Below, piece after piece: positions 4,553 through 56,928 of a DNA stretch of 64,000 nt. Positions within the stretch are counted from its first letter, which is position 1; every line of letters begins with the position of its first letter. Both the position numbers and the translations under genes were made by a program. The DNA lies in the IMG/VR virus record IMGVR_UViG_3300025141_013870, positions 32,001 through 96,000 of that record; one strand, written 5' to 3'. The DNA is from a virus. The notes beneath the pieces were generated by a model. That model saw nothing but the letters and a program-made list of their open reading frames with translations. It had not been told where the DNA came from and searched no databases.

Positions 4553-4606
4553 AAAATATGGAACACAATACTTATAGCTGAATAGTTATCTTTAGGAGAA
4601 ATATAA

Positions 4607-5098
4607 ATGGCTGAAACACTTTCCGTCACCGACATGCTTCCCAATAAGTTCGAACCGAAAAGACAATTTCGGTGGATCTTTGCCATAGAGGGAATAGACG
4701 CATTCTTGATGAAGACAACAAATAGACCCCAGGTAACTTTCCAGGTGTCAACACTTAACTTTATCAACGCTAAGAGATACCTAGCAGGAAGAATGGAATT
4801 TTCCACAATGGGACTCACGCTCTACGACCCAATAGCACCATCTGGTGCGCAACAGGTTATGGAGTGGATTAGAACCGCATATGAATCAGTATCTGGTAGA
4901 GCAGGATATGCAGATTTCTATAAGAGAGACATTCAGTGTAAACTTCTTGATCCAATTGGAACGGTTGTTGAGCTTTGGGATATAAAGGGAGCGTTTATCA
5001 CAGATGCCAACTTCAACGCACTTGATTATGGTAATGAGGAAGCACCCATAGAGATATCACTAACACTTCGGTATGACAACGCTGTTCTTCAATTCTAA
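4607..5098 (+). CDS. Tail tube protein (T4 gp19-like)
   Basis: 163 aa directly after the sheath; FEPKRQFRW, LYDPIAPSGAQQVMEW, WDIKGAFIT, ISLTLRYD pattern typical of myovirus tube proteins. Confidence 0.88.
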   Translation: MAETLSVTDMLPNKFEPKRQFRWIFAIEGIDAFLMKTTNRPQVTFQVSTLNFINAKRYLAGRMEFSTMGLTLYDPIAPSGAQQVMEWIRTAYESVSGRAGYADFYKRDIQCKLLDPIGTVVELWDIKGAFITDANFNALDYGNEEAPIEISLTLRYDNAVLQF

Positions 5099-5120
5099 TA
5101 AATTTTTACATTCATTGATT

Positions 5121-5152
5121 AAAAGACCCGTTTATCGGGTCTTTTTTATTTT
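5121..5152 (+). terminator. Rho-independent terminator after the sheath-tube operon
   Basis: AAAAGACCCG-TTTAT-CGGGTCTTTT perfect 10-bp stem followed by a T-rich tract. Confidence 0.85.
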
Positions 5153-5203
5153 ACTTATTTACTTTTTTGTATAATGATTATATGAATAAAAATCGGAGAT
5201 AAA

Positions 5204-6010
5204 GTGTCTAGTAATATTCCAATGCAAAACGTCATGAAGGAAACATTTAACTGGGATGTGCCAGTTGAGGCAATCCCCATCCCATCAGAGGGCAGGGTGT
5301 ATCATCCTGATACGTCTCTATACGGAAAGCAAATGCTTGAAATAAAGGCAATGACAGCACAGGAGGAAGACATACTTGCATCACGTGCGCTTATAATGCA
5401 AGGAACTGTCATAACACATCTAATCCAGTCATGTCTTGTGGATAAAACTGTAAATGTTAGAGACATGTTGATCGGGGATAGAAATGCTCTAATGATAGCA
5501 GTTAGGATCACTGGGTATGGAAGTAACTATAGCGCAGAGTCTGTTTGCCCAGAGTGCGATGAGAAAAGTGTTCAGGATTATAACCTTGGAGAGCTTGAGA
5601 TTAAAAGGCTAGACTTGTCACCTGCAAGAGATGGAGAGAATCTATTTTCATTTAAGTTACCAATAACAAAAAAGACAGTTGAGTTTAAGTTTCTTACCGG
5701 CGCAGATGAGGAAGAGAGATCTCTCGTCATGGAGAGAAAGAAGAAGATGATGCCCAACATGAAGGTTGACTCCACTGTGACGTCCAAGCTGGGTCAGACA
5801 ATCGTATCTGTTGACGGAGTGATTGAAAAGAATAAGGTTAATAGCTTTGTTAAGAACATGCCGGCTAGGGATTCTAGATCGCTTAGGACTTATGTTCAAA
5901 AACACGAACCTGGCATAGATATGAATGTGTGGATGAAATGTCCACACTGTTCTGAGTCATCTAAGGTATCACTCCCGATCGGAGGCAATTTTTTTTGGCC
6001 TGATGAGTAA
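5204..6010 (+). CDS. Tail assembly chaperone / baseplate hub assembly protein (gp26-like)
   Basis: Lies between tube and tape measure; IKAMTAQEEDIL, GDRNALMIAVRITGYG, two CxxC pairs (CPEC, CPHC), ends NFFWPDE. Confidence 0.7.
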   Translation: MSSNIPMQNVMKETFNWDVPVEAIPIPSEGRVYHPDTSLYGKQMLEIKAMTAQEEDILASRALIMQGTVITHLIQSCLVDKTVNVRDMLIGDRNALMIAVRITGYGSNYSAESVCPECDEKSVQDYNLGELEIKRLDLSPARDGENLFSFKLPITKKTVEFKFLTGADEEERSLVMERKKKMMPNMKVDSTVTSKLGQTIVSVDGVIEKNKVNSFVKNMPARDSRSLRTYVQKHEPGIDMNVWMKCPHCSESSKVSLPIGGNFFWPDE

Positions 6011-6260
6011 TTGGAGAGAGTCTTTTTTAGAAGAGGCATTTCTATTACAATATCACCTAAAAATGAGTTACTCTGATGTGAGAAGTCTACCTGTACCTTA
6101 TCGTAGGTGGTTTTTAGATAGGCTAGCGACAGAGTTCAACAATCAAGCAGAGGCTGCTAAAAAGTCTCGCAACAGTGATCCAGGAAGAACGTCAGTCACA
6201 CAGGACATCCCAATGGGTGAGGTGATGGAAAGATTAGCCTCTAGAGAAAAGAAGTTTTAG
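6003..6260 (+). CDS. Second tail chaperone ORF (possible frameshift extension of the upstream gene)
   Basis: Overlaps the upstream stop in the +1 frame; LLQYHLKMSYSDVRSLPVPYRRWFL resembles the short ORFs that precede tape-measure genes. Confidence 0.6.
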   Translation: MSNWRESFLEEAFLLQYHLKMSYSDVRSLPVPYRRWFLDRLATEFNNQAEAAKKSRNSDPGRTSVTQDIPMGEVMERLASREKKF

Positions 6261-6305
6261 GGGACTTTCACCTGCCTAATATGTATAAGAGAAGGGTAGT
6301 GTCGC

Positions 6306-9300
6306 ATGGGCAAAGACGATCTTAAATCTCAGTTAGAATTTACAAAACAGATTAAGGCGAACATAGGAGCCATAAATCTTAAGCTAGCTGATCAGATAAA
6401 GATGCAAAATCTTGTTAATCTATCCCTAAAGGGCCAGCTTGACAAGGCAGCTGAAGCAGGAAACATAACCGACGAGGCTATGAAAAAGGCGGGCATAAGT
6501 GCAACAACTGCCTCGGGAGCAGTGGGATCAGTAGCGGGATCTCTTGATGCAACAGGTGTAGCTGCTGATGAGGCTGGCGCAAAGACAGAGGGACTGGCTG
6601 CAAAGGCTATTAACGCTGCAGACGCCACCATGCAGGCGTGGGATGCCACAGGAGATTTTTTTAATGGTCTCATCTCAAAACCTGTTGCGAATGAGCTAGA
6701 CACCATACAGACCCTGTATGGCGGACTTACTGGTCCAGGTGGTCCGTTTGCATCAAGAAATCAACTCTCAAAAAAGCTTGTAGATACAACTATGGGTCTG
6801 AATCGTGAGATGACGGACATGGATGGGAAGTGGGCCAAGCTTTTCGGAAGAGATCCGAGAGATTCAATTGGTGAACTTTCCGATGTAATGGGTGAATTCA
6901 ATACGCTAGTAACAGGAGATCAGGGAGTCGTTGATGGCCTTCGCATAGTCAATGACCTTTCAGCTGATAATGTAATAGCGATGAAGGCATACTCAAAGGC
7001 AGCCATGCTTGACATAACTGATGTACAAAACATCATGTCACGTGAGATAAGCCGGACAGGAAAAGCAGGAACTTCGATGATTGAAGAGGTAGCTGTCTTC
7101 TCTAAGAAGCTAGCTGCAGCAACAGGCGATTCAGCCAAGCAGATATCACAAAACATGGTCAAGATAATTGACGATACAGATAATTTTGCCAATGTCACTG
7201 TCGCCCAGGCTGCAAGAATTAGCGTCACGCTCCGACAATTGAGCCTAAGCTATGAAGATCTCGCTGGAGCAACTGGTCAATTCATGGACTTTGAGGGAGC
7301 TGCTGATAGTGTGTCAAAGCTAACGTCAGTGTTCGGCATACAGATGGATGCAATGGATATGATGATGGCTGCGCAGGAGGATGAGGATACGCTTCTAATT
7401 AAGATGAGAGACTCATTCCTCAATGCAGGAATCTCAGCTAGAGATCTCACAAAGTCGCAGAAGGCAGTCATAAAGGAGGCACTGAACCTGACAGACATCC
7501 AATCTGTCGAAAGATTGCTTGATCCAACAAAGGCCATATCAGGAATGGCAGACCTCGCAGCTGTCACAGATGAAGGTGTAGGCTCCATGGAGGAGAATAT
7601 GGAGCTCCTTCGAGAGGACATCAACGACCTTGACTCGGCTATGCGTCACACGTCGAAGAAGATGGCTGCTCACATAAAGGAAAGCTTCCTAGCTCCTACA
7701 CAGCAGAGTCTAATTGAGTTTGATGTCGCGATGGGAGGTGTAGGACGAACAATAAAGTCAGCTATTCCAAAGTCTGCTGCAATGTCGATGAAGTTCTTTG
7801 GAAAGAGTCTATCAGAGGTTGCTGGGATAGATGAGGCCAAGCTCAAGATGCTCAAGGAGAACCTCGGCGGAATAGCTAATCTACTTAAGGAGGCTGGAAT
7901 AGCCCTTAAGGATAGTGATCTAGGAAAGGAGCTTGGAGGGCTGTTAGAGAAGACAGGCATGAAGAAGGACATGGAGTCCATAACTGGCGGAATCCAGAGC
8001 TCTCTTGGTGAGATGACAACGGCATTCTCAAAGTCAGTTGATAACATGATCAAAGCTCTCGATAAGGCGGGTCTTCTAGGGGAATCTCCGTCTCCTATCG
8101 GTAGAAACATAGCCGGAGGAATTGAGACTCCGTTTACGATGGCTTTTGAGTCGATGAAGGTAACACAGCTCAAACACGCAAAGTGGACAGAGAAGCAGAT
8201 AGCAGTAGGAATGCTTGACGCAAATAAGGACAAGGACTACAGAGAAAAGCTTGTTAAAAAATATTATAAGAAAATACAGAAGGAGCAGACAAAGTCTGAA
8301 AATGTACACAAAAAGGCTAAAGAGAAGCTGCAAAAGGCAGATGCAAAGCTTGCTGGTGATGCGGATAATAAGAGGCTCCAGGAGGCAGCCAAGGTAGCCA
8401 AGAAAAAGGCAGATATAACTGGCAATGCCATGCACGATGCTCAAAAGGCAGTGCAACTTTTCGAGAACAGGAAGGCAACCACAGACTGGAAGGATGCATC
8501 AAGATCATATGAGGTAGCAAAGGCTAAGATCGACGCAGAGCAGGAGCTCACGAGGGGGATCATTGACCAGAGCAAGGAACAGCTCAAGGTCAAGAAGAAG
8601 ACTGATTTGCAGATTATTGAGTCAGCAAAGGCTAAGGCTGCTGCGGAGAAAAAGGATGCCCAGGTAGCTGTGAAGAGACGGTCTGCTATGCTTGGTCGAG
8701 AACTTAAGGATAGAGAGAGCTTCTACGGAGCTGAGGCTAGAAAGCTCGGAGCTTCTGGCAAGACATATGATCAGCTATCAGAGAAGGATAGGGAGTTCTA
8801 TAGAGACAAGCTCAACCTTGGAAAGAACTATCAGGCTGAGCTCCAGAAGATAATGTCTGGAGAGACATTCCAGGAGGGACAGGCTGAGTTCAAGCAGAAG
8901 CAAAAGTCAGTGAAAATTCTTGAAGGTATGAAGGCTCGCGCTCTGAAAGGAGATTTCGATGCCGACAAGCTTAGTGAAAAACAGCTAAAAGATCTGAAAG
9001 AGAAACACGGACTAACAAAGGAGATGATTAAGGAGGCGACGGCGAAAGGAAGCAACATCACAGATATCGCCACCACGGGAGCATCAGCGAAACACGCATC
9101 TCTAATATCGAAGGAGAAGGAGAAGACAGAGGAGAAGGGAGAGAGTAAGTCATCAAAGGCTGCTGCCCGTGCGAGTCGTGCCCAGGCAAAACAGTTACAG
9201 GCGCTTACTGAGGTAACCGAGCATAACGGGAAGCTGATAGAGATCGTGGCTACAGAGATCGATAAGCTTTACACCATGCTTGATAAGAAACAGTTCACTC

Positions 9301-41039: not shown

Positions 41040-41285
41040 ATGTATAGAATGTCAGACGAAGTTATTTCACAAATTGCAAAGCTTGTTCAGCTTGCAATTA
41101 TCACTGGAACAGATGTCGTAGATAATCTTAGAATGATAAGAGTTGAACCGTCTGAGGAAGATGGCGCATGTCTTTCACTGACACAAGAGTACAGAGAGAT
41201 TGGTGAAAATCAGATTAATAGTTTGCTGTCTGAGCTTGACAATGTCAATACTTCAGATGAGGAAGTAGATGTCGAAATCGAGTGA
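41040..41285 (+). CDS. Small hypothetical protein
   Basis: AGGAG RBS; 81 aa acidic protein at the head of an operon. Confidence 0.6.
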   Translation: MYRMSDEVISQIAKLVQLAIITGTDVVDNLRMIRVEPSEEDGACLSLTQEYREIGENQINSLLSELDNVNTSDEEVDVEIE

Positions 41286-41652
41286 TAATCTAAAACACAT
41301 GTTTGATCTAAGAGAGTCATTTATGGTATCTCTTAGAAAGAAGTTTTCTACTGAAAATCCTGAATGGCCACTAGATCTTTCTACAAAAGAACATCAACAA
41401 TATTGCAGAGACATAGCACTGAGAGGTGTTGAAGAGATGTTTGAAGCTCTGCAGCATTTAAAAAACTGGAAGCCACATCGGACAACTGAGATAACTGAAT
41501 TTGACAGAGATGAGTTTTTAGAAGAGGTAGTAGATGCTTTTAATTACTTTTTATCTTTGTTAGTTTTGACAGGCTTTTCATCAGAAGATTTTTACAAGAT
41601 GTATGTCAAGAAGGATAAGATTATACATGAAAGACTCAAAGGCGACTATTAG
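41269..41652 (+). CDS. All-alpha dimeric dUTPase/dCTPase-like (MazG superfamily) pyrophosphatase
   Basis: VEEMFEALQHLKNWKPHR and EFLEEVVDAFNYF match the two acidic metal-binding helices. Confidence 0.75.
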   Translation: MSKSSDNLKHMFDLRESFMVSLRKKFSTENPEWPLDLSTKEHQQYCRDIALRGVEEMFEALQHLKNWKPHRTTEITEFDRDEFLEEVVDAFNYFLSLLVLTGFSSEDFYKMYVKKDKIIHERLKGDY

Positions 41653-42580
41653 AGATTTATTTGAATTACAAAAAAGATTTAATGATATTTTCTATGATAT
41701 GGATGATATCGGATCAAGAGAACGAGAAGAGATCACAAAATCTTTAGCGCTAGCATTACACACTGAGGTTAGCTCTCTTATATCTGCAATAAACTTTAAA
41801 GATCACAGGCAGAATAAAAAAGATGCTGATGAATACAAGATCTTGTTTGAAAGTGTAGATATATTTCGATATCTTATTTCTATTCTAAACATCTGGGATA
41901 TCACGCCAGAAAGATTTACAGAGGCATTTCTTGATAAGGATTTGTTTCTTCATGCAAGATACAAGATCAATTCTAGCAAGTGGTCGGGACAGGATGTAAT
42001 CATAGTAGATCTTGATGATGTAGTAATAGAATTTAGGAATGGTTTTCTAGAGTGGCTTAGTGATACATATAAAATATTTGTTGACCCTGATAGCAAAGAA
42101 TACTATACAACTGCTGAATTAAAAAATGCTGGTGTTAATCCTGAAAAGGTATTTTCTAATTTTATTAAGAGTAGAGGATTAAGATCTTTAGAAAAAAATC
42201 AAGATATGATTGATGTAATTAACAAGCTGAGTGCAGACGGATATTGGATTCAGCTTTTAACAGCTAGACCGCAAGATAATCTTGTGTGCCATTACGATAC
42301 GTTTAGATGGATAGAAAGCTCTAATTTAAAATATGATAGATTAGATTTCAGCAATGAAAAATATAGATGGTGTACCCAGTCTGATTATTTTGATAGCAAC
42401 AGTATCGTGTGTGCTATAGATGACTCAGCTAAGCATAGTGCTGAATATGCAAAACACGGAATTCCAGTTTTTCTTCCTTCAAAAAGTTACAACACTGAAG
42501 TACACAATATGACCAATGTAACAGTGTTTGATGATCCGAGAGACGTGTGGGAAAAAGTTAAATCTCTTAAGAATAAGTAG
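41627..42580 (+). CDS. Fusion of a MazG/dUTPase-like domain and a HAD 5'-nucleotidase-like domain
   Basis: N-terminal HTEVSSL...KDHR...FESVDIFRY; C-terminal IIVDLDDVV, LLTARP, AIDDS (HAD motifs I, II, IV). Confidence 0.7.
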   Translation: MKDSKATIRDLFELQKRFNDIFYDMDDIGSREREEITKSLALALHTEVSSLISAINFKDHRQNKKDADEYKILFESVDIFRYLISILNIWDITPERFTEAFLDKDLFLHARYKINSSKWSGQDVIIVDLDDVVIEFRNGFLEWLSDTYKIFVDPDSKEYYTTAELKNAGVNPEKVFSNFIKSRGLRSLEKNQDMIDVINKLSADGYWIQLLTARPQDNLVCHYDTFRWIESSNLKYDRLDFSNEKYRWCTQSDYFDSNSIVCAIDDSAKHSAEYAKHGIPVFLPSKSYNTEVHNMTNVTVFDDPRDVWEKVKSLKNK

Positions 42581-43999: not shown

Positions 44000-44980
44000 A
44001 TGCCGCAAAATTTTGACTTAGATCCTATTGTACTACCAATGGATTTAAAGTTTGATCAAGATCCTACTACAGAGTTTTATAATAATCTACAAGCACTAAA
44101 GGTAGAGCTGATTGATTATCCAACCAGAACTCAGGCTTTAAAGGTTGCATGGCAATATGTCAAGGCTACGTGGGCTGATCATCATGATGAAACAACCACT
44201 GCTGGAATTGATCCAGCAGAGCTATCAAAAAATCTTGAAGATGTTATGTGCTTTAGAGCTCTTCCCACTCCAATGGAGTGTCTTGGGTTCACGTTTAAAT
44301 TGAGCGGGCTTTCATTTCAAGAGGTCACGCATATTATTCGTCACAGAGCAGGATCTTTTGCTGCTCAATGCACGGGAGATAGAGATCTTAGAAGTGATCC
44401 GGCTGTAATTCCCGAGGCTGTTCAAAATTCTCCTGAGTTTCTTGAGAGATGGAAGAATCTTGTCTTAGAGTCTAAACAGTTATATGCAGACATGACTGAT
44501 AGTAAAGATGTTTCAATGATGGATGCCAGGATGGTTCTTCCAAAGTGTATGACTTCTTTTTATCTTATGAGAATGAATTTAAAAGATTTGCTTGGATTTA
44601 TTCGACAGAGGCAGGATAAGCAGATTCAGCCAGCTGCTGACAACATTCTCGCCGCATATATGGCTAGAGAACTAATTAATGTGCTACCAGAAGCATCTGT
44701 AGCTATTAGATTCGACTCACCTGACATGCACTATATCAAGACATTTAGAGTTAAAGAAGCAGGAAGATGGACAAGTAAGGGGACAAATCTATACTGGCCT
44801 GAGCCAAAGAATGATACATTTGAGTATCATCCAGACGACACCATATATCAGGCTCGAAGAGAATCAATTAACGGAACAAAGAAGCCAGACGGTCCTACAG
44901 TTTTTGAAAGATTATGGGACGATGTTATGAATGATATTAGTTTCATGAAGACAGAATATAATAAAAACAAATTAGAATAA
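44000..44980 (+). CDS. Divergent ThyX-like flavin-dependent enzyme
   Basis: TPME..FTF, RHRAGSFAAQC, DARMVLP and NLKDLLGFIRQR align with ThyX motifs, with substitutions. Confidence 0.75.
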   Translation: MPQNFDLDPIVLPMDLKFDQDPTTEFYNNLQALKVELIDYPTRTQALKVAWQYVKATWADHHDETTTAGIDPAELSKNLEDVMCFRALPTPMECLGFTFKLSGLSFQEVTHIIRHRAGSFAAQCTGDRDLRSDPAVIPEAVQNSPEFLERWKNLVLESKQLYADMTDSKDVSMMDARMVLPKCMTSFYLMRMNLKDLLGFIRQRQDKQIQPAADNILAAYMARELINVLPEASVAIRFDSPDMHYIKTFRVKEAGRWTSKGTNLYWPEPKNDTFEYHPDDTIYQARRESINGTKKPDGPTVFERLWDDVMNDISFMKTEYNKNKLE

Positions 44981-45050: not shown

Positions 45051-45491
45051 ATGAAGGCATATATAGCAAGTTCGTGGTTTAATCCTGTAGCTAATCAGGA
45101 GGTAAACGATATTATTAGCTCTCTAGCAGAAAATAATTTTGAATTTTTTTCACCTAGAGATTTTTTTGTGTGTCCACCAGGCGCTGACCTAGAGACTCAA
45201 AAATCAACATATGAAGGAAATCTTGAACATCTTCACAATTGTGATTTCATGATATGTAATACGCACGGAAAAGACATGGGATCAATTTTTGAGGCAGGAT
45301 ACTTTAAGGCACTAGATAAGCCTATTGTTTACTTTTGTGCAGGGTTGCCAGAGGGAGCATCATTTAATCTTATGCTAGCTCAAAGCGGTGTGACTGTGTG
45401 CACGTCAAAAGATCAACTAAGTGACTATCTATCTAGGTGTAGTGATCAAGAGCAGCTTCTTTTTGAGCCATATTACGGCAGTATTGAATGA
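45051..45491 (+). CDS. Nucleoside 2-deoxyribosyltransferase / nucleotide N-hydrolase family protein
   Basis: AYIASSWF, FFSPR and KDMGSIFEAGY (D-x-G-x3-E-x-G-Y catalytic motif). Confidence 0.8.
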   Translation: MKAYIASSWFNPVANQEVNDIISSLAENNFEFFSPRDFFVCPPGADLETQKSTYEGNLEHLHNCDFMICNTHGKDMGSIFEAGYFKALDKPIVYFCAGLPEGASFNLMLAQSGVTVCTSKDQLSDYLSRCSDQEQLLFEPYYGSIE

Positions 45492-47066: not shown

Positions 47067-50000
47067 ATGTCAGAGAAAAAGAATTTTATACTTCCTAAGA
47101 GATTTGTCGGCTTACACGCTCACAGCGGAACTGGATCTCCGTATGACGGTCTGGGATATCCAGATCAGCATATAGATTTTGTTCTATCTAATGATATGGA
47201 TGCATGGGCATTAACTGATCACGGAAACGGAAATGGTCTTGCACATGCTCATGCGTATGCCAAGAAGTTAAAAAACAAGGGACAAAAATATAAACAGCTG
47301 TATGGTGTAGAATTTTATTTTGTTCCTTCTCTTTTTGACTGGAGAATACAATATGAGAATCATAGAGAGGAAGTTCGTCAAGCTAGAACAGAAAAAAAGT
47401 CAAAAGAGAGAACAGATATCGATTCTGAAGACGAGGTGTCAGGCGGACTTATTATAGAAAACGAAGAAGAGACAAAAGGTGATTTTGATAAAAATGTGTG
47501 GAAAAGACGATATCATCTCGTTGTCTTAGCTAAAAACAGCCAGGGTCTAGAGAATTTATTTACTCTTGTAAAAAGATCATACACAGATGGTTTTTATAGA
47601 TTTCCAAGAATTGATTTTGATCTTCTTAATAAGTATGGTGATGGCCTTATAGTAAGCACAGCATGCATTGGCGGATACCCATCATCGTTAATAGCAAGAG
47701 GTGAATCACATGGAAAGTCAAGCAAAGATATCATTCTTGATTTAGAAAACATGTCTGATAGATTTATTGACGCAGTAGGAAGAGAAAATTTTAATCTCGA
47801 GATTCAATTCAATTCATTGTCTATGCAACATAAGACAAACAAATATCTTATAAAGCTTCATGAAAAAACAGGAATTCCTCTAGTTGCAACTGCTGATAGT
47901 CACTACTATAGCAGAAACATGTGGGAAGCAAGAGAGCTTTACAGAAAGCTTGGCAGAATGGGAGCTAGAGGAGATTCAATGCCTACACTTCCTTCTTTTG
48001 AAGATCTTAAATGTGAGCTTTATCCTAAGAATGCTAACCAGATGTGGGATGAATTTAACGTTCACCTTCCTGAATATGAGTTTTATAAAGGAAAAGAACA
48101 GATTATTTCCGATGCAATTGAGAGAACATATGACATTGCATGGGAACAATGTGAAGAAATATGGTTTGACGAAGATGCAAAATTACCAAATTTTGACTTG
48201 CCTGACAATCCTGCTATTACTCAGCTAGTATTTAGAGTCAAAAAAGCACTTATTGATGAAGGTCTTCACGAAAAGAAAGAGTATGTAGAAAGAGCAACGA
48301 TGGAGCTGAGCGACATCAAGCACCTTGGTTTTGAAAATTATTTTCTCACAATGACAAAGGTTTTTGATCTAGCTTCAAAGAAAACTATTATTGGACCAGG
48401 AAGAGGTTCTGGAGCAGGATCTCTTGTAAATTATCTCTTAGGAATCACTACGACAGATCCCATCAAGTATGGTCTTCTATGGGAGAGGTTTTTGCATAGA
48501 GCAAAAGCAGGATGGCCAGATATTGATACAGACGCTGGTGATAGAGATGTCTTGATAAATGCGTCTAGAGAATTATTTGGAGATGAATCAGTTGTACCTG
48601 TTTCAAATTTTAATACTTTAAAATTAAAATCTCTAATAAAAGATGTTTCAAAATTTTATGGCATTGATTTTGGTGAGGTCAATGCAATGACAAATAAGCT
48701 TGAAAAAGAAGTCATGCATAAGGCAATGGGAGACCATGAAGAAAAATCGACTTATGTTCTAACTCATGAAGACTGTTTGAAATATTCTGATAACTATGTT
48801 GACTTCATGTCAAAATATCCAAAGGTATCCGAACAGGTTCAAAAGCTTTTTATGGAATCAAGATCTATTGGAAGACATGCAGGCGGAGTCCTGATATGCC
48901 CAAATCTAGAAAAATATATGCCACTTATTAAGGTAAGAGGAGAGCTCCAGACGCCATGGTCAGAAGGCATGAACTTTAGGCACTTAGAGCCTAATGGCTT
49001 TCTTAAGTTTGATTTTCTAGGTCTAACAACTTTAAAAATGGTTGAAGATTGTATTCGACTTGTCTTGAGAAAACAGGGAAACACATCACCTTCATTTGAT
49101 GACATTAGTAAATTTTTTGATGATAATATAAACTGTAGATATAATGACTTAACTGATGATAAAGTTTGGGAACATGTTTATCACAAGGGAAGATTTGTAC
49201 AGGTGTTTCAATTTACGCAGCAGGGCGCAAGAAATTTTTGCAGAAGAGCAAAGCCAAGAACCATAGAAGAGCTAGCAACAATTACGGCAATATATAGGCC
49301 GGGCCCGCTGGCAGCAAATGTTGATAAGAAATATGTCAAGACGAAAAGGGAGGCAGAAAATGGAAGCCCTATTCGCTATGATCATCCAGTGATTGAAGAG
49401 ATACTGAGTGAAACATATGGTTTTATATCATTCCAAGAGCAATTCATGCTCTTAGCACAGAGGCTATCAGGATTTGACAAGGGGGAATCAGACAAGATGA
49501 GAAAGACACTTGTCAAGAAGTCTCTTGATTCAAATGCAGCAAAGGTGCAGGAAAGAATTGACTTAAGAAAGAAGTTTGTTGATGGAGCAGTTGAGCTATC
49601 TGGAATGAAAAGAGATATAGCAGAGACTCTTTACGAGACAATTGAGTATTTTTCTGGATATGGATTTAATAAATCACATGCGATTTCGTATGCGATCGAT
49701 TCGTATTATTCTGCGTGGCTGCATACTCATTATGAAAAAGAATGGCTAGCCACATGTCTTCAGACTCAAAACGGAACAAATAAGTTTGGAAAGGTTATCA
49801 ATGAGATCAAGTCTTTGGGATACAAAATACTTCCTCCTGACATTAATATTTCTTCTGATGTCTGGGTGTATAGTGATGAAAGAAACGGTTTTGTTCCGCC
49901 TTTAACTGCGATCAAAGGTGTTGGATCAGCTGCAGTTGAAGAGATCATTGATCGCAGACCGTTTTCTAATATAGATGAAATGCTTTTTACAGAGGACGGA

Positions 50001-50633
50001 AAATGGAAGCCTTCTAAGATGAATAAAACATGCTTTGATTCATTGTGCAAGGTAGAAGCTTTTGGATCACTTGATGAGATGAAAAATAGAGCAATTAAGA
50101 ATCATAGACAGCTATATGAAACAATTGTTGGAAATTATGATCTTTTAAAAAAAGGTCGATACGGAATAACAAAAACTGCGTATAAAAAGACTATTAAAGA
50201 AAGAGGTGATATTCCAAGATTTATAGATGAAAAAACAATAGAGAATTATGATCTTCAAGATTGGACTCGTGAATCTAAAATATTATTTAGTGTTGACTTG
50301 ATGGCAGGAGCAGATGAAACTCTTATCTTTCCTCCAAAGATAATGGAGAAGATTGAAAATGCCAATGTGAGACCTGCCTCTAGCCTGATGGGAAAGGAGA
50401 AAGATATAGTCTGGTTCTGTATTCAAACACTAGAGGAGAGAACAACGAAAAATGGAAAAATTTTCTACAGGATGAAAGTTATAGATAATAACTTCGAAAG
50501 TACGTGGATTCGTGTTTGGGGTGCATTTAGAGATATTCCAGATCTTTACACCATGTGGATCGCTGAGGTTGCATCTACAGATTCATGGGGCTGTTCTACA
50601 TCGTCATATAAAATGAAAAGGATTGATGTATAG
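47067..50633 (+). CDS. dnaE: DNA polymerase III alpha subunit (family C) with PHP domain
   Basis: LHAHS, ALTDHG, GVEFY, STACIGG, VATADSHY, GPGRGSGAGSL, WPDIDTD, GRHAGGV, KFDFLGL, FSGYGFNKSHAISY. Confidence 0.96.
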   Translation: MSEKKNFILPKRFVGLHAHSGTGSPYDGLGYPDQHIDFVLSNDMDAWALTDHGNGNGLAHAHAYAKKLKNKGQKYKQLYGVEFYFVPSLFDWRIQYENHREEVRQARTEKKSKERTDIDSEDEVSGGLIIENEEETKGDFDKNVWKRRYHLVVLAKNSQGLENLFTLVKRSYTDGFYRFPRIDFDLLNKYGDGLIVSTACIGGYPSSLIARGESHGKSSKDIILDLENMSDRFIDAVGRENFNLEIQFNSLSMQHKTNKYLIKLHEKTGIPLVATADSHYYSRNMWEARELYRKLGRMGARGDSMPTLPSFEDLKCELYPKNANQMWDEFNVHLPEYEFYKGKEQIISDAIERTYDIAWEQCEEIWFDEDAKLPNFDLPDNPAITQLVFRVKKALIDEGLHEKKEYVERATMELSDIKHLGFENYFLTMTKVFDLASKKTIIGPGRGSGAGSLVNYLLGITTTDPIKYGLLWERFLHRAKAGWPDIDTDAGDRDVLINASRELFGDESVVPVSNFNTLKLKSLIKDVSKFYGIDFGEVNAMTNKLEKEVMHKAMGDHEEKSTYVLTHEDCLKYSDNYVDFMSKYPKVSEQVQKLFMESRSIGRHAGGVLICPNLEKYMPLIKVRGELQTPWSEGMNFRHLEPNGFLKFDFLGLTTLKMVEDCIRLVLRKQGNTSPSFDDISKFFDDNINCRYNDLTDDKVWEHVYHKGRFVQVFQFTQQGARNFCRRAKPRTIEELATITAIYRPGPLAANVDKKYVKTKREAENGSPIRYDHPVIEEILSETYGFISFQEQFMLLAQRLSGFDKGESDKMRKTLVKKSLDSNAAKVQERIDLRKKFVDGAVELSGMKRDIAETLYETIEYFSGYGFNKSHAISYAIDSYYSAWLHTHYEKEWLATCLQTQNGTNKFGKVINEIKSLGYKILPPDINISSDVWVYSDERNGFVPPLTAIKGVGSAAVEEIIDRRPFSNIDEMLFTEDGKWKPSKMNKTCFDSLCKVEAFGSLDEMKNRAIKNHRQLYETIVGNYDLLKKGRYGITKTAYKKTIKERGDIPRFIDEKTIENYDLQDWTRESKILFSVDLMAGADETLIFPPKIMEKIENANVRPASSLMGKEKDIVWFCIQTLEERTTKNGKIFYRMKVIDNNFESTWIRVWGAFRDIPDLYTMWIAEVASTDSWGCSTSSYKMKRIDV

Positions 50634-51538
50634 TGTTATTGTTTCCTACAAATACTCTTTTTATAGAAGGTCCTGACTGTTCTGGAAAGACAACTTTAAT
50701 AAAGAACATTCACAATCTATCAAATTATTTGTGGCATATTCACGATAGATCTCAAATATCAAGAAGCATATTTAATGAGCTTTATAATAGAGAAAATGAT
50801 AACATAGAGTCAGATTTACATCTTGAAATTTCAAATCTCAATAATAGATTCGTCTTGTTACTACCTGATATAAGGGTTGTTAGTGAAAGATTTATTAAAA
50901 GAGGAGATGACTTTCATAAAGACATGAAATCAATAGAAAGTGTTTATAATATCTTTGAGAGAAAATTTAAATACCTAAGAGATTTTCCAAATACTATGAT
51001 ATATTCAAAAAGTCATCCAGATGAAATAGCATCAATTGTGCTCGCCAGGCTTCATCTTGTTGAACGATGCATGATTAGAGAGGTATCAGATCAGGTATTA
51101 AGATTTGTAGAGTGTAATAATAATGAGGCTTATCCCGTTAAGTTTACATTATATGATGATGGTGAATTTGAAGAGGCTAGTGAATCAGTACTTGACTATA
51201 AGCCAGAAAGCGATTATTACAATTCCATATTTAATAAACTGCACACAAAAATAAGTGATGAGCTAGCGGGAAATAATGAATATAGCAGGGTTGAAGATAC
51301 AACCTCTAGAAGATTTATTTATACAGATAATACATGTATATCGCTTATTCATGTCGCAATTAGAGACAGAGTTATGGATTTTCATACAGTGATTAGATCA
51401 TCTGATGTCGAAAACATTTTTCCTCACGATCTAAGATTTTTGTATTATCTAGCTGCCACTTGTTATAATAGATTTTCAGATGAATGTGATAAGGTTAGAA
51501 TGAGATTTAATTTAAACTCTGCTCACATAATATGTTAA
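50633..51538 (+). CDS. Fusion of a dNMP kinase and a minimal thymidylate-synthase-fold domain (dCMP-type Asp)
   Basis: IEGPDCSGKTT P-loop and HDRS; C-terminal SRRFI...TC...IRSSDV...FPHD...NSAHI aligns with ThyA SRRII/PCH/QRSCDV/LPFN/GDTHLY. Confidence 0.75.
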   Translation: MLLFPTNTLFIEGPDCSGKTTLIKNIHNLSNYLWHIHDRSQISRSIFNELYNRENDNIESDLHLEISNLNNRFVLLLPDIRVVSERFIKRGDDFHKDMKSIESVYNIFERKFKYLRDFPNTMIYSKSHPDEIASIVLARLHLVERCMIREVSDQVLRFVECNNNEAYPVKFTLYDDGEFEEASESVLDYKPESDYYNSIFNKLHTKISDELAGNNEYSRVEDTTSRRFIYTDNTCISLIHVAIRDRVMDFHTVIRSSDVENIFPHDLRFLYYLAATCYNRFSDECDKVRMRFNLNSAHIIC

Positions 51539-51564: not shown

Positions 51565-52572
51565 ATGAAAAGAGCACTAGTAACAGGAGGATGCGGATTT
51601 ATCGGATCCAATCTTTCAAAGAGACTTGTAAAAGACGGATGGGTTGTTGACATTGTAGATGATCTATCAAGTGGACATTTAGAGCTAGTTCAAGAATTAA
51701 AGATTAGAGTTATACCGGTAGACTTGTTATCACAATTTTATGATAATTTTGATAGAGATGAAGGAACAGTTCACATTTTGCAAGGTGATTTTTCACATGA
51801 CAATGTGTTAAAAAATATCATTGATCAAAAATATGATTATGTTTTTCATCAGGCTGCGATACCAAGGGTCCTTTTTTCTGTTGAAAACCCATCTTTAACA
51901 ACAGAAGTGAATATAGCAGAAACGGTTAGGTTGTTTGAGGCATGCATAGGAAGTGTCAAGAGAGTCATATTTGCATCATCATCATCTGTTTACGGAGGCG
52001 CGGATGTTCTTCCCACACGTGAAAGTATGTCAAAAAATCCTAAGTCACCATATGCGTGGCAAAAGAGCGCAGTTGAAGATATAGCGGAATTATTTTGTCA
52101 ATTATACGATATTGATATCGTATGCTTAAGATACTTTAACGTCTTTGGACCAGGCCAGTATGGCGACTCTCCGTACTCCACAGCAGTTTCTGCCTGGTGT
52201 CACGCACTTAAAAATGGATCGCCTATGAGAAGTGACGGTGATGGATCACAAACAAGAGATATGTGCTATATTGACAATGTTATCCACGCTAACGTACTAG
52301 CTGCTGAATCTGATCGAACGAGATTTGATGGATTTAATGGAAGATGCTATAATATTTCATGCGGAGATAGAACATCTAATTCTGAAATATTAGAATACTT
52401 TACAAAGAGATATTCTCACGCAGCTGTTGTCAATGCTCCCTGGAGACCTGGTGATGTAATGCACACCCAGGCAGATATATCAAGAGCAAGCGAAGAGATT
52501 GGATATGAACCTCTTGTGAGATTCTGGGACGGACTAGAAAAGACTATTGAATGGTGGGGTATAGATTCTTGA
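51565..52572 (+). CDS. NAD-dependent NDP-sugar epimerase/dehydratase (extended SDR)
   Basis: LVTGGCGFIGS, VFHQAA, FASSSSVYG, SPYAWQK (YxxxK), LRYFNVFGP, GDGSQTRD. Confidence 0.93.
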   Translation: MKRALVTGGCGFIGSNLSKRLVKDGWVVDIVDDLSSGHLELVQELKIRVIPVDLLSQFYDNFDRDEGTVHILQGDFSHDNVLKNIIDQKYDYVFHQAAIPRVLFSVENPSLTTEVNIAETVRLFEACIGSVKRVIFASSSSVYGGADVLPTRESMSKNPKSPYAWQKSAVEDIAELFCQLYDIDIVCLRYFNVFGPGQYGDSPYSTAVSAWCHALKNGSPMRSDGDGSQTRDMCYIDNVIHANVLAAESDRTRFDGFNGRCYNISCGDRTSNSEILEYFTKRYSHAAVVNAPWRPGDVMHTQADISRASEEIGYEPLVRFWDGLEKTIEWWGIDS

Positions 52573-53003
52573 TGCTTTCTAAAAAACACGTAAAATCTTC
52601 CTGGGTTGTTAGAAAAAAAACAAACAGTGTTATAAACAAACCTTGGGGAACTGAAACAATATGGTCAGGATTTTTTGGAATTCATGGAAAAACATGTTTT
52701 ATTAAAGCCGGTGCCAGATCAAGTTTTAAATATTTTCCAATAAAATCTGAAGTTTTATTTTTAAGATCTGGAAAGGCAGAGGTGACGTTTGGGGCTGAGG
52801 AGACACTATTGGATCCCATAGGCTATCCGTTAAAGAGTGAGATACTTTGCGAGGGAGACGTGCTAATGGTTCAATCTGGCTGCCCGTATAGGGTTAAAGC
52901 CATAACTGATTGTGAGATAATTGAGATAGGAAATAATTCTACAGATAAGCCAGTTAGAATAGAGGATGACTATGGAAGAGCTACAGCTAAAAAGAAATCC
53001 TGA
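52572..53003 (+). CDS. Cupin-fold protein (sugar isomerase-like)
   Basis: KPWGTE start and VRIEDDYGR end, as in the cupin domain of type II mannose-6-phosphate isomerases; metal-binding His residues not evident. Confidence 0.65.
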   Translation: MLSKKHVKSSWVVRKKTNSVINKPWGTETIWSGFFGIHGKTCFIKAGARSSFKYFPIKSEVLFLRSGKAEVTFGAEETLLDPIGYPLKSEILCEGDVLMVQSGCPYRVKAITDCEIIEIGNNSTDKPVRIEDDYGRATAKKKS

Positions 53004-55945: not shown

Positions 55946-56218
55946 ATGAAGACCTTTTCCTCAAAAGATATCTTAGAGATCGTAAAAAAAATACATAATC
56001 AAAATGAAAATATTGATGTATTTGCAGGAAAAGGATCAGATAGAAAAATAATAGTTAAAAAGGGCCTGAAGATACGTCACAAGCCATCAGGCCTAGTTTA
56101 TACTGTTTTAAAGGTAATAATTCCAGATGGTAGCTCTGAACCTAAAATTTTATGCAGAAGGCCTGGAAAGGAATTACTTATTACGAGAAATGAGTTTAAA
56201 GACTACGAGAGGCACTAA
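55946..56218 (+). CDS. Hypothetical protein
   Basis: GAGG RBS, preceded by ATATTTAAA; coupled to the SOD gene. Confidence 0.6.
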   Translation: MKTFSSKDILEIVKKIHNQNENIDVFAGKGSDRKIIVKKGLKIRHKPSGLVYTVLKVIIPDGSSEPKILCRRPGKELLITRNEFKDYERH

Positions 56219-56928
56219 TGTCAGATAATAAGGATAAAGGATTGTTCACACATAAAGATTTGAGAAAAAACATCAGAAAAAGCTTGAATCTTTGTGATGA
56301 GAGGCTAGATGAATCCTATGTTGCACAAGTGAAACAATTTAATCTACCAACAGAATTACTTAGCAAGTCAAGTAAAAAAAATCATATAGTGCTCTACGAC
56401 AATTATGTAGCTGTATTTAATAGAATTAGCGCTGAGCTTGATACCGCAGATAGAGCTAGTTCAAATTCTGATCATTCTCAATTTAGAGATCTTAAAGTTG
56501 ATGAGACATATAATATGAATTCATCTTACTTACATGAATTATACTTTTCTAACATTAGTGATCTTCATAGCGAGATATCGATGGATTCACTGTCTTATAT
56601 GCGTCTCGCTAGAGACTTTGGCTCTTTTGATGATTGGCAAAAAGATTTTGTCGCTTGCTGCTTGGCTTCTAGGTGCGGCTGGGCGATTACATATTTTAAT
56701 ACTTTCATGCAAAGATACATGAATTGCTCTATTGATCTGCATAGTCTTAATGTTCCCGTGGGTGCTTATCCCGTCATAGTGATGGATGTGTGGCAACATG
56801 CTTATTATAGAGACTATCTTAAGGATGTAAAGACATATGTATATGGCATGATGAAGCAGCTAAATTGGAAAGTTATAGAAAAACGATTTGAGAAAGCTGA
56901 TGAAATTCAAAAAATACTAAGGGCATAA
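56218..56928 (+). CDS. Fe/Mn superoxide dismutase-like protein
   Basis: NHIVLY, LHELYF, FGSFDDW, GW, PVIVMDVWQHAYY, LNW. Confidence 0.85.
   Translation: MSDNKDKGLFTHKDLRKNIRKSLNLCDERLDESYVAQVKQFNLPTELLSKSSKKNHIVLYDNYVAVFNRISAELDTADRASSNSDHSQFRDLKVDETYNMNSSYLHELYFSNISDLHSEISMDSLSYMRLARDFGSFDDWQKDFVACCLASRCGWAITYFNTFMQRYMNCSIDLHSLNVPVGAYPVIVMDVWQHAYYRDYLKDVKTYVYGMMKQLNWKVIEKRFEKADEIQKILRA

What the first reader, a model, noticed from the sequence alone, without database searches (positions are those of the whole stretch)
50633..51538. dNMP kinase fused to a stripped-down thymidylate-synthase fold with a cytosine-type specificity residue
Seen in sequence: an N-terminal P-loop kinase (GPDCSGKTT) is joined to a C-terminal ~110 aa that aligns to the ThyA catalytic core: SRR, Cys, RSSD, FPHD, NSAHI. 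Established: the Asn in ThyA LPFN selects dUMP, whereas dCMP-modifying homologues such as T4 gp42 carry Asp there and Ser before the His. This protein has Asp (FPHD) and Ser (NSAH). It lacks most of the ThyA N-terminal and C-terminal elements linked to folate binding. Inference: it modifies dCMP at C5, possibly by non-folate chemistry such as hydroxylation, and the fused kinase phosphorylates the modified dNMP, the role T4 gp1 plays. The gene is translationally coupled to dnaE.
Basis: partly seen in the sequence, partly recalled or inferred. Interest (0 to 1): 0.85.

Follow-up and report, generated by a model that had tools for sequence, protein, structure and literature searches.

The report
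Phage kinase fused to mini thymidylate-synthase
An uncultured marine giant phage encodes one protein that joins a small nucleotide kinase to a stripped-down thymidylate-synthase-like domain with a cytosine-type active site, so this phage and hundreds of relatives probably make an altered cytosine nucleotide for their DNA, but the alteration is still unknown.

Summary
Residues 1-~150 form a YorR/TMPK-like P-loop kinase (Z 14.4). Residues ~145-301 form a minimal thymidylate-synthase (TS) fold. All seven PDB hits with Z >= 8 are TS-superfamily enzymes, and profile alignment to T4 gp42 gives 94.7%, E 6e-8.

The nucleotide-binding and catalytic residues are invariant in 81 relatives: Arg226/227, Cys235, Arg255-Ser256, Asp266 (the Asn177-to-Asp cytosine switch), Ser296 and His298. 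A homodimer model places Arg226 of one chain in the other chain's site, as in TS.

The TS segments that hold folate are absent. These are the internal W80/W83/Y94 block and the C-terminal tail.

Split forms exist, with a kinase gene next to a stand-alone mini-TS gene. Complete relatives have no other TS-fold gene.

The chemistry is unresolved. AfhB (flavin dCMP hydroxylase) ties with ThyA as nearest structure. The published hydroxylase marker (D169N) is Asp in this protein and varies N/D/E in the family.

This is a new variant of a known kind. I found no paper describing it. This scan met the same family earlier on other genomes, and those follow-ups reached the same reading.

The parts
50633..51538 (+). 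Whole gene: 301-aa kinase/mini-TS fusion. The GTG start overlaps the dnaE stop by 1 nt.
   Evidence: 395 homologues of about 300 aa; 80 viral loci
50633..51073 (+). N-terminal P-loop (d)NMP-kinase-like domain, residues 1-~147. YorR/TMPK/dNK fold.
   Evidence: VIA Z 14.4 to YorR 3kb2, 13.4 to deoxyadenosine kinase, 12.2 to dTMP kinase. PDB profile hit to YorR, E 5.7e-6. PHROG 761 'thymidylate kinase', E 9e-9.
50669..50695 (+). P-loop GPDCSGKTT (residues 13-21). G13, D15, G18 and K19 are >=95% conserved.
51065..51535 (+). Minimal thymidylate-synthase-fold domain, residues 145-301.
   Evidence: Domain model pLDDT 97.0. VIA wide: 9iqc Z 11.6 (143 aligned), ThyA 11.0, MilA 10.1, T4 dCH 8.9, next unrelated chain 5.7. 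Foldseek top 50 hits are all TS superfamily.
51305..51313 (+). Ser225-Arg226-Arg227, the equivalent of E. coli S125-R126-R127 (phosphate-binding arginines lent to the partner subunit).
   Evidence: hhalign. R226 in 81/81 and R227 in 80/81. In the dimer model R226 touches S256 and S296 of the other copy.
51335..51337 (+). Cys235, the equivalent of the catalytic nucleophile (E. coli C146, T4 gp42 C148).
   Evidence: hhalign; PDB profile register; 81/81 conserved; 16/16 in stand-alone forms
51395..51406 (+). Arg255-Ser256-Ser257-Asp258, the equivalent of E. coli R166-S167-C168-D169. Position 258 varies N39/D31/E10 in the family.
51428..51430 (+). Asp266, at the position of E. coli Asn177 and T4 gp42 Asp179 (uracil/cytosine selector).
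   Evidence: hhalign; 80/80 Asp
51518..51526 (+). Ser296-Ala297-His298, the equivalent of gp42 S-L-H216, RB69 gp48 S-A-H and E. coli D-T-H207. The protein ends 3 residues later, so the TS C-terminal tail is absent.
47067..50633 (+). dnaE (Pol III alpha), upstream on the same strand. This is the conserved partner gene of the fusion.
   Evidence: Present within 10 kb upstream in 80/80 loci. It abuts or overlaps (<=12 nt) in 27/80 and lies within 100 nt in 38/80.

Best explanation
The gene encodes a bifunctional homodimeric enzyme of nucleotide metabolism.

**C-terminal domain.** This domain is a minimal thymidylate-synthase fold. It binds a cytosine mononucleotide, most likely dCMP, using Asp266 for the base, Arg255/Ser256 plus Arg226'/Arg227' from the partner chain for the phosphate, and His298 for the sugar. 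Cys235 attacks C6, which activates C5 for addition of a substituent.

**N-terminal domain.** This YorR/TMPK-type P-loop kinase then phosphorylates the altered dNMP, which host kinases would not accept. The modified nucleotide can then reach the triphosphate level and be used by the phage's DnaE replicase. This matches what T4 gp42 plus gp1, or RB69 gp48 plus gp159, do as separate proteins.

**Shown.**
- The two folds.
- Retention and invariance of the TS nucleotide-site and nucleophile residues.
- The cytosine-type Asp.
- Loss of the folate-holding segments.
- The fusion and fission link between kinase and mini-TS.
- Conserved placement in a dnaE/nucleotide-metabolism module.

**Inferred.**
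- The substrate.
- Covalent catalysis.
- The order of the two reactions.
- The dimer, which rests on a model only.
- That virion DNA is modified.

**Open.**
- The chemistry is undetermined. It could be hydroxymethyl, hydroxyl, methyl or something new.
- The cofactor is also undetermined.
For: **Fold.**
- The AF2 model has pLDDT 94.5 and pTM 0.90.
- The kinase half matches YorR at Z 14.4.
- The TS half matches MilA at Z 12.2, AfhB at 11.2-11.4 and ThyA at about 11.
- The domain-only search gave only TS-superfamily chains at Z >= 8.

**Sequence homology.**
- hhalign gives gp42 94.7%, E 5.9e-8. RB69 5hodCMP synthase gives 90.7%, E 1.2e-6. ThyA gives 55%.
- Motifs align one-to-one, with spacings Cys-x19-Arg-Ser-x-Asp-x7-Asp as in TS.

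**Conservation.**
- R226, R227, C235, R244, R255, S256, D266, S296 and H298 are invariant or nearly so across 81 members, down to 29% identity.
- The same residues are conserved in 16 stand-alone mini-TS proteins.

**Branch signature.** The residue 3 before the Cys is acidic (Asp232), and the Ser-x-His motif is present. Both match the phage dCMP-modifying branch and not ThyA (criteria from PMC13326640).

**Dimer.**
- The complex prediction score is 0.87, and the best of 3 controls is 0.00.
- That mark was reached by 20 of 30 proteins solved as pairs of one chain and by 1 of 23 proteins solved as single chains.
- The runs agree in >=96% of contacts, and the partner pLDDT is >=90.
- The interface is the TS-type sheet, and R226 contacts S256/S296 of the other copy.
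- TS dimers are solved, so this pass may partly reflect likeness to known structures.

**Functional link of the two halves.**
- In L083, a kinase gene (hhalign 95.5%) overlaps the start of a stand-alone mini-TS gene (95.8%).
- In L088, a kinase gene (93.6%) lies just upstream of a mini-TS gene.

**Context.**
- dnaE lies upstream in 80/80 loci.
- Nearby genes in the 80 loci: TK in 67, dCMP deaminase in 68, DHH phosphoesterase in 49, ThyX-like in 39.
- NTP pyrophosphohydrolases are present in the window.
- No PF00303 TS occurs in the window's record or in four long relatives, one of them 100% complete by CheckV. The mini-TS is therefore their only TS-fold protein.
- This gene is the only TMPK-like gene in the 118-kb record.

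**Precedent.** 5hodCMP synthases need a cognate dNMP kinase for incorporation into DNA (PMC13326640).
Against: **No biochemistry exists.** No product, cofactor or modified DNA is known for any member.

**Missing catalytic parts.**
- The domain lacks the TS block that carries W80, W83 and Y94, and it lacks the C-terminal tail.
- It is therefore unclear how folate or flavin could be held, or how the C5 proton is removed.

**The Asp169 position is unstable.** The position equivalent to E. coli Asp169 is invariant within each known class but switches N/D/E inside this one syntenic family. The active site may work differently from both known classes.

**Evidence for full cytosine replacement is thin.**
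- The phages also keep dCMP deaminase, TK and two ThyX copies.
- No gp56-like dCTPase was recognised.

**Glycosyltransferases.** No glycosyltransferase was found in the 118-kb record, which is only 37% of the genome.

**Kinase type is unresolved.** Pfam hits of family members split between dNK (4) and TMPK (3).

**A second candidate enzyme.** One split-form virus (L083) also carries a separate PF00303 TS-like gene with Asp at the selector position. The mini-TS is therefore not always the only candidate modifier.
Confidence: 0.55

Rival explanations
1. The order is reversed (salvage coupling). The N-terminal domain is a deoxynucleoside kinase that makes dCMP from deoxycytidine released from host DNA. 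It hands the dCMP to the mini-TS domain for C5 modification, and another kinase makes the diphosphate.
For: - Structural matches to deoxyadenosine kinases are nearly as good as those to TMPK (Z 13.4 against 12.2).
- Four of 38 members hit Pfam dNK, against three for TMPK.
- The BFVD top hit is annotated as deoxyguanosine kinase.
- The module holds TK, a DHH phosphoesterase and an NT5C nucleotidase, which fits a salvage setting.
Against: - The P-loop has the TMPK-type Asp (EGxDxxGK), where dNKs carry Asn. This rests on established motif knowledge and was not tested here.
- The split orthologue P0269 passes Pfam Thymidylate_kin (36.9 bits, cut-off 27).
- A modified dNMP would still need a dedicated kinase, and no other one is seen in the record.
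Confidence: 0.15
2. The mini-TS domain does not install a substituent. It may be a dCMP-binding regulatory or scaffolding module of the kinase or of a dNTP-synthesis complex. Alternatively it may perform cofactor-free Cys chemistry, such as C5-H exchange, dehalogenation-type reactions or Cys-assisted deamination.
For: - The folate-holding segments and the Tyr94 block are absent.
- The Asp169-equivalent position is not fixed.
- No cofactor site can be named.
- L083 has a separate full-length TS-like gene.
- L086 has two tandem mini-TS genes, which hints at roles other than one simple enzyme.
Against: - The nucleophile Cys and every nucleotide-site residue are invariant down to 29% identity, and also in stand-alone forms. 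That is the pattern of an active enzyme.
- Other residues are invariant too (E165, E192, Y195, Y196, R244), which suggests a conserved catalytic apparatus.
- A zinc dCMP deaminase is already present.
Confidence: 0.2
3. It is a thymidylate synthase/thymidylate kinase pair on one chain (dUMP to dTMP to dTDP).
For: - PHROG 761 'thymidylate kinase' matches the N-terminal half.
- It is the only TMPK-like gene in the record.
- The fold is TS.
Against: - The selector residue is Asp in 80/80 members, where ThyA has Asn. In ThyA the N177D change switches preference to dCMP (PMC13326640).
- The folate site is gone.
- The phages carry ThyX, two copies in long relatives.
- The closest sequence relatives are gp42 and RB69 gp48, not ThyA.
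Confidence: 0.04

Closest known systems
Flavin/O2-dependent 5-hydroxy-dCMP synthases of the TS superfamily (phage HY126 AfhB, PDB 9iqu/9iqc; RB69 gp48; DLP3 gp80) with their separate dNMP kinases
   Same: - TS fold. AfhB is the top Foldseek hit (E 1.2e-7) and the top VIA hit (Z 11.6, 143 of 157 residues aligned).
- Profile homology to RB69 gp48 is 90.7%.
- Cys nucleophile, the Arg pair, Arg-Ser, Asp at the 177 position, an acidic residue 3 before the Cys, and the Ser-Ala-His motif.
- A short C-terminus.
- The same need for a phage kinase to pass the product on.
   Different: - This domain is about 155 aa against 217-238 aa, so roughly 75 internal residues are missing.
- The diagnostic D169N is not met here (Asp258) and varies N/D/E in the family.
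- The kinase is fused, and it is YorR/TMPK-like rather than gp1-like.
- No flavin evidence exists.
- The Z advantage over ThyA is under 1, so the two are tied.
T4 gp42 dCMP hydroxymethylase (with gp1 dNMP kinase)
   Same: - Best profile match (94.7%, E 5.9e-8).
- The signature is identical: Asp 3 before Cys, Cys, Arg-Ser-x-Asp, Asp179, Ser-x-His.
- The pathway logic is the same: modify dCMP, then phosphorylate it with a phage kinase.
   Different: - gp42 is 246 aa and has a complete folate site, including the W82/Y96 block and the C-terminal part. Those parts are absent here.
- The structural Z is lower (8.9).
- The kinase is a separate gene in T4.
ThyA thymidylate synthase (E. coli, L. casei)
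   Same: - Core sheet and helices A, B and J.
- The equivalents of C146, R126/R127, R166/S167 and H207.
- A dimer through the sheet, in the model.
   Different: - Asn177 is Asp.
- L143 is Asp.
- D205 is Ser.
- Y209 is Ile.
- Residues of roughly 66-122 and 210-264 have no counterpart.
- Pfam PF00303 does not detect the domain.
B. subtilis SPbeta YorR (PDB 2axp/3kb2), an uncharacterised phage P-loop kinase-like protein
   Same: - Best match of the N-terminal half (Z 14.4, 22% identity; profile E 5.7e-6).
- Shared EGPDC..K.T P-loop, DR motif and RGDE lid motif.
   Different: - YorR stands alone and has no assigned substrate.
- Here the domain is fused to, or encoded next to, a mini-TS.

Membership tests
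Thymidylate synthase / dCMP hydroxymethylase superfamily (fold level) | The TS alpha/beta fold, supported by significant structural and profile similarity | tested here: met
   VIA wide: 7 of 7 chains with Z >= 8 are TS-superfamily, top Z 11.6 with 143/157 residues aligned, next unrelated chain 5.7. hhalign to gp42: 94.7%, E 5.9e-8.
Thymidylate synthase / dCMP hydroxymethylase superfamily (fold level) | Catalytic Cys, plus phosphate-binding Arg-Ser and a trans Arg-Arg pair | tested here: met
   C235, R255-S256 and R226-R227 align to C146, R166-S167 and R126-R127. They are invariant.
Thymidylate synthase / dCMP hydroxymethylase superfamily (fold level) | Obligate homodimer through the beta-sheet, with arginines reaching the partner's active site | tested here: met
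   This rests on a model only. Complex prediction scored 0.87, with the best of 3 controls at 0.00. That mark was reached by 20 of 30 proteins solved as pairs of one chain and by 1 of 23 proteins solved as single chains. The runs agree in >=96% of contacts, and the partner pLDDT is >=90. R226 contacts S256/S296 of the other copy. The pass may partly reflect memory of solved TS dimers.
Pfam PF00303 Thymidylat_synt | Score above the gathering threshold (24.3 bits) | tested here: not met
   No hit at E <= 10 for the protein or the domain. No hit in the six-frame search of the record. No A1 member hits at E <= 0.01.
ThyA (dUMP to dTMP) | Asn at position 177 (uracil selector) | tested here: not met
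   Asp266, in 80/80 members.
ThyA (dUMP to dTMP) | Folate-binding segments (W80/W83 block, C-terminal tail) and Tyr94 | tested here: not met
   Only about 141 residues align across TS residues 1-262. The chain ends 3 residues after the His207 equivalent. There are about 13 residues between the long helix and the SRR motif.
T4-type dCMP hydroxymethylase | Signature of Asp179, an acidic residue at the L143 position, and Asp at the 169 position | tested here: met
   D266, D232 and D258 in this protein. In the family, the L143 position is acidic in 49/81 members and the 169 position is N/D/E.
T4-type dCMP hydroxymethylase | Use of CH2-THF (a complete folate pocket) | not testable with these tools
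   The segments that form the pocket in gp42 and ThyA are absent. Whether the kinase domain substitutes for them needs coordinates with ligands, or an assay.
Flavin-dependent 5hodCMP synthase (AfhB / RB69 gp48) | D169N diagnostic residue (PMC13326640) | tested here: not met
   Asp258 in this protein. The family splits Asn 39, Asp 31, Glu 10.
Flavin-dependent 5hodCMP synthase (AfhB / RB69 gp48) | N177D and L143D/E | tested here: met
   D266 and D232.
Flavin-dependent 5hodCMP synthase (AfhB / RB69 gp48) | Bound flavin and O2-derived hydroxyl | not testable with these tools
   Needs purified protein (UV-vis at 370/455 nm) and 18O2 labelling.
(d)NMP kinase, TMPK/YorR type | P-loop, DR motif, lid arginines and the kinase fold | tested here: met
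   G13, D15, G18, K19, D38, R39, R86, R90, G91 and D92 are >=95% conserved. Z is 14.4 to YorR and 12.2 to dTMP kinase.
(d)NMP kinase, TMPK/YorR type | Pfam PF02223 above threshold; phosphate acceptor is a dNMP | tested here: inconclusive
   The window protein scores only 8.5 bits. Three of 38 members have E < 0.01, against four for dNK. The split orthologue P0269 passes at 36.9 bits. The acceptor was not testable.

The most novel reading that the evidence does not exclude
The mini-TS core is a new catalytic class of the TS superfamily. It works without the classical folate pocket, and the kinase domain packed against it closes a composite site. Alternatively, the kinase may phosphorylate the new C5 substituent rather than the 5'-phosphate. 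On this reading it makes a cytosine derivative not yet described, and that derivative is built into the DNA of a whole clade of abundant marine giant phages (hundreds of contigs).
Probability: 0.2. Interest if true: 0.88.

Novelty: new variant of a known kind. Interest (0 to 1): 0.66.

Why it matters
**A likely unknown DNA chemistry.**
- TS-fold enzymes that modify dCMP are the entry points to phage DNA hypermodification, such as hydroxymethyl-C and the recently found hydroxy-C with sugars.
- Here the same active-site core appears in its smallest known form, without the parts that hold folate. It is welded to the kinase needed to pass the product on.
- It is conserved next to the replicase gene in several hundred uncultured, mostly marine, large phages.
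- If it is active, these phages carry a modified cytosine that nobody has looked for.

**Consequences if true.**
- It would affect how their DNA is sequenced.
- It would affect how they evade restriction and CRISPR.
- It would affect how viromes are quantified.

**Enzymology.** The protein is a compact model for how the TS scaffold changes cofactor and chemistry.

**Testability.** One cloned gene and nucleoside LC-MS would test the idea directly.

Tried and rejected
**Library and database searches.**
- Pfam gave only a weak AAA_28 hit for the whole protein and nothing for the C-domain.
- PDB sequence search with the single protein gave nothing useful.
- tblastn against 50,697 phage records found only a 33% partial kinase match in Pelagibacter phage HTVC119P. 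No cultured phage carrying the fusion was found.
- Stand-alone mini-TS queries found only weak matches to full-length TS or dCMP hydroxymethyltransferase genes of Tenacibaculum and Bacteroides phages, or nothing.

**Context of stand-alone forms.**
- The A3 alignment had no usable pattern, and P0256 gave no locus.
- Only one IMG/VR contig and four metagenome contigs were recovered.

**Looking for a pathway.**
- I searched for a gp56-type dCTPase. The two NTP-pyrophosphohydrolase-like genes show no BLAST similarity to RB69 gp56.
- I searched for glycosyltransferases (GT1, GT2). None is in the 118-kb record. Two of four long relatives have them, but far from the module. A sugar hypermodification is therefore not supported.
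- I tested whether the D/N/E state at position 258 goes with particular neighbour genes. There is no pattern beyond relatedness.

**Discriminating hydroxylase from synthase by structure.** This failed. The Z values are 11.6 against 11.0, which counts as tied.

**Literature.**
- The He et al. paper on AfhB is not in the library, so flavin-contacting residues could not be checked.
- Searches for a described kinase/TS-like fusion found none.

**Residue-level mapping.**
- The N-terminal half of the mini-TS (E165, E192, Y195, Y196) could not be mapped onto TS Glu58 or Tyr94.
- The model coordinates are not readable in the script box, and hhalign aligns only the C-terminal half.
Full report
**1. The observation**

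The ORF at 50633-51538 (+) encodes 301 aa. Its GTG start shares one base with the TAG stop of the upstream 1188-aa dnaE gene. An AAAGGA sits about 12 nt upstream. Homologues begin with Met at the same position.

- P-loop, residues 13-21
- SRR, residues 225-227
- Cys235
- RSSD, residues 255-258
- FPHD, residues 263-266
- NSAHI, residues 295-299

**2. Fold**

Pfam does not see a TS domain. The whole protein gives only a weak AAA_28 hit, and the C-terminal part gives nothing. A six-frame search of the whole 118-kb record with PF00303 is also empty.

An AlphaFold2 model built on 38 homologues is confident, with pLDDT 94.5 and pTM 0.90.

| Region | Best structural matches |
|---|---|
| Residues 7-151 | SPbeta YorR Z 14.4; deoxyadenosine kinase Z 13.4; dTMP kinase Z 12.2 |
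| Residues 144-301 | MilA Z 12.2; AfhB dCMP hydroxylase Z 11.2-11.4; ThyA about Z 11, with about 141 residues aligned across L. casei TS 1-262 |

The C-domain modelled alone has pLDDT 97.0. I searched it against 48,161 PDB representatives without Foldseek. It gave seven chains with Z >= 8, all from the TS superfamily:
- 9iqc, Z 11.6, 143 of 157 residues aligned
- Brucella ThyA, Z 11.0
- MilA, Z 10.1
- T4 dCH, Z 8.9

The next chain was unrelated, at Z 5.7. The top 50 Foldseek hits are all TS-family.

The TS-like domain is therefore about 155 aa, not about 110 aa. It retains the N-terminal helix and strand of TS. What it lacks is an internal block and the C-terminal tail. The internal block is the E. 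coli segment of about residues 66-122, which carries W80, W83 and Y94. The chain ends three residues after the His207 equivalent.

**3. Sequence-level homology and residue mapping**

I built a 61-sequence profile of the C-domain (A2) and aligned it to three references.

| Reference | hhalign probability | E-value |
|---|---|---|
| T4 gp42 | 94.7% | 5.9e-8 |
| RB69 gp48 (experimentally shown 5hodCMP synthase, PMC13326640) | 90.7% | 1.2e-6 |
| E. coli ThyA | 55% | 1.2e-4 |

A PDB profile search also placed T4 dCH in the same register, though weakly.

| This protein | E. coli ThyA equivalent |
|---|---|
| S225-R226-R227 | S125-R126-R127 |
| D232 | L143 |
| C235 | C146 |
| R255-S256-S257-D258 | R166-S167-C168-D169 |
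| D266 | N177 |
| S296-x-H298 | D205-x-H207 |
| I300 | Y209 |

Across 81 family members, down to 29% identity, conservation is very high:
- R226 in 81/81
- R227 in 80/81
- C235 in 81/81
- R244, R255, S256, D266 and H298 each in 80/81 members; the one exception is an alignment gap
- S296 in 79/81

Position 232 is Asp or Glu in 49 of 81 members. Position 258 is Asn 39, Asp 31, Glu 10.

By the criteria in PMC13326640, this protein carries the N177D and L143D/E changes of the dCMP-modifying branch. It does not carry the D169N marker of the hydroxylases. Its signature matches T4 gp42. The N/D/E switching inside one syntenic family suggests this position does not play the role it plays in either known class.

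**4. Dimer**

TS needs a dimer because the Arg pair serves the partner's active site.
- A two-copy prediction scored 0.87, and the best of 3 controls scored 0.00.
- That mark was reached by 20 of 30 proteins solved as pairs of one chain and by 1 of 23 proteins solved as single chains.
- The runs agree in at least 96% of contacts, and the partner pLDDT is at least 90.
- The interface is the TS-type sheet (residues 229-256 and 289-296).
- R226 of one copy touches S256 and S296 of the other.
- Kinase residues 31-64 also meet across the axis.

TS dimers are well represented among solved structures. The pass therefore shows likeness to them, not proof that this protein dimerises.

**5. Family, fusion and fission**

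There are 395 homologues of about 300 aa, almost all from marine metagenomes, on contigs up to 280 kb. In IMG/VR, 131 stretches encode a relative, and I kept the best 80 loci.

A library-wide HMM search with the C-domain alone gave 442 hits.
- Most are fusions of about 300 aa.
- Some are stand-alone proteins of 164-218 aa that keep the same invariant residues.
- These stand-alone forms touch PHROG 160 'thymidylate synthase' at 1e-5 to 1e-6, and the unannotated PHROG 35203.
- The ESM Atlas places the domain beside viral 'hypothetical protein' clusters of 144-183 aa. One of these clusters has PF00303 on 18% of its members.

| Contig | Arrangement |
|---|---|
| L083 | A 155-aa kinase homologous to the N-domain (95.5%) overlaps the start of a stand-alone mini-TS (95.8%) |
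| L088 | A homologous kinase (93.6%) lies just upstream of a mini-TS |
| L086 | Two mini-TS genes in tandem |

This fusion and fission pattern links the two activities functionally.

L083 also has a separate PF00303 TS-like gene with Asp at the selector position, a ThyX and an NT5C nucleotidase. In that virus the mini-TS is not the only TS-fold protein.

**6. Genomic context**

The window lies in a 118-kb IMG/VR record estimated to be 37% complete, so the phage is a giant one. Genes around the fusion:
- two NTP pyrophosphohydrolase-like genes, one fused to an NT5C nucleotidase
- a divergent ThyX
- a nucleoside deoxyribosyltransferase-family protein
- DnaJ and DnaE
- an NDP-sugar epimerase/dehydratase
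- a cupin
- thymidine kinase
- a DHH/DHHA1 phosphoesterase
- a methyltransferase
- dCMP deaminase
- an SOD-like protein

dnaE is on the same strand within 10 kb upstream in 80/80 loci. It abuts the fusion (<= 12 nt) in 27 loci and lies within 100 nt in 38.

| Neighbour gene | Loci of 80 |
|---|---|
| Thymidine kinase | 67 |
| dCMP deaminase | 68 |
| Epimerase | 55 |
| SOD-like | 57 |
| DHH phosphoesterase | 49 |
| NDT-like | 47 |
| ThyX-like | 39 |

Four long relatives (202-284 kb, one 100% complete by CheckV) have no PF00303 gene. Each has two ThyX homologues. GT1 and GT2 genes occur in two of the four, far from the module, and none occurs in the window's record. This gene is the only TMPK-like gene in the record.

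**7. Interpretation**

The most economical reading is a fused functional analogue of T4 gp42 plus gp1, or of RB69 gp48 plus gp159. A Cys-dependent enzyme modifies a cytosine mononucleotide at C5, and its own kinase moves the product towards the triphosphate.

The nature of the substituent cannot be read from sequence.
- The gp42-like signature points to hydroxymethylation, but the folate pocket is largely missing.
- The nearest structure is the flavin hydroxylase, but only by a tie with ThyA, and its marker residue is absent here.
- The conserved extra residues (E165, E192, Y195, Y196, R244) and the tightly packed kinase domain may form a different cofactor site.

Rival readings remain open:
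- a non-modifying dCMP-binding or cofactor-free role
- a nucleoside-kinase-first order of reactions
- a plain TS/TMPK pair (unlikely)

**8. Novelty and earlier notes**

I found no paper describing a kinase/TS-fold fusion or a TS domain of about 155 aa.

Earlier follow-ups in this scan examined members of the same family in other genomes. They reached the same reading and named the same closest known enzymes. I saw those notes only after my own analysis.

New in this report:
- the split kinase/mini-TS gene pairs
- the tandem mini-TS pair
- the dimer model with the trans-arginine contact
- the N/D/E count at the 169 position
- the absence of any PF00303 gene in a complete relative
- the second, divergent ThyX with a Cys in the ThyX motif

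Noticed in passing
window 44000-44980 (+); also L105, L106, L107, L108: Each long relative (G001-G004) has two ThyX genes. One is canonical (PF02511 E about 1e-50, 224-254 aa, motif RHR-x7-S) and lies elsewhere in the genome. The other is a divergent 322-328-aa paralogue near the dnaE/kinase-mini-TS module. Its ThyX motif reads RHR-x7-Cys, and it has a C-terminal extension of about 90 aa. The window's copy is the divergent type. It could be a second pyrimidine-C5 enzyme of the same pathway.
   Followed up: partly
L083:2051-2797 (+), 2794-3774, 4671-5336, 5381-5848, 5836-6483: A 57.7-kb viral contig carries, in a row, a PF00303 TS-like gene with Asp at the selector position, a ThyX, an unannotated 332-aa ORF (3752-4750), an NT5C nucleotidase, a small YorR-like kinase and a stand-alone mini-TS. 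PolB and NrdD follow about 0.4 kb further on. That puts three thymidylate-synthase-type genes in one module.
   Followed up: partly
L086:28-612 and 614-1159 (+): Two mini-TS paralogues sit in tandem, 1 nt apart, on a metagenome contig. This suggests a possible heterodimer.
   Followed up: no
window 56218-56928 (+): An Fe/Mn superoxide-dismutase-like protein (Sod_Fe_C, E 7e-18) is conserved downstream of the module in 57 of 80 loci. This is unusual for a phage nucleotide-metabolism block. It might relate to oxygen-dependent chemistry.
   Followed up: no
window 51565-52572 (+) and 52551-53003 (+): An NDP-sugar epimerase/dehydratase (55/80 loci) and a cupin (PHROG 7851 'cysteine dioxygenase', 25/80 loci) directly follow the fusion. 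No glycosyltransferase was found in the 118-kb record, so a link to DNA glycosylation is unsupported.
   Followed up: partly
window 41603-42580 (+) and 41269-41652 (+): One gene fuses a dimeric dUTPase/MazG-like NTP pyrophosphohydrolase to an NT5C-type 5'-deoxynucleotidase. A second, stand-alone NTP pyrophosphohydrolase lies just upstream of it. Neither shows BLAST similarity to RB69 gp56 dCTPase.
   Followed up: partly
window 45051-45491 (+): A protein of the nucleoside 2-deoxyribosyltransferase/DNPH1/MilB family (PF05014, E 1.5e-15) occurs in 47/80 loci. In mildiomycin biosynthesis a member of this family (MilB) works with the TS-fold enzyme MilA. That pairing is from my own knowledge and was not tested here.
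   Followed up: no
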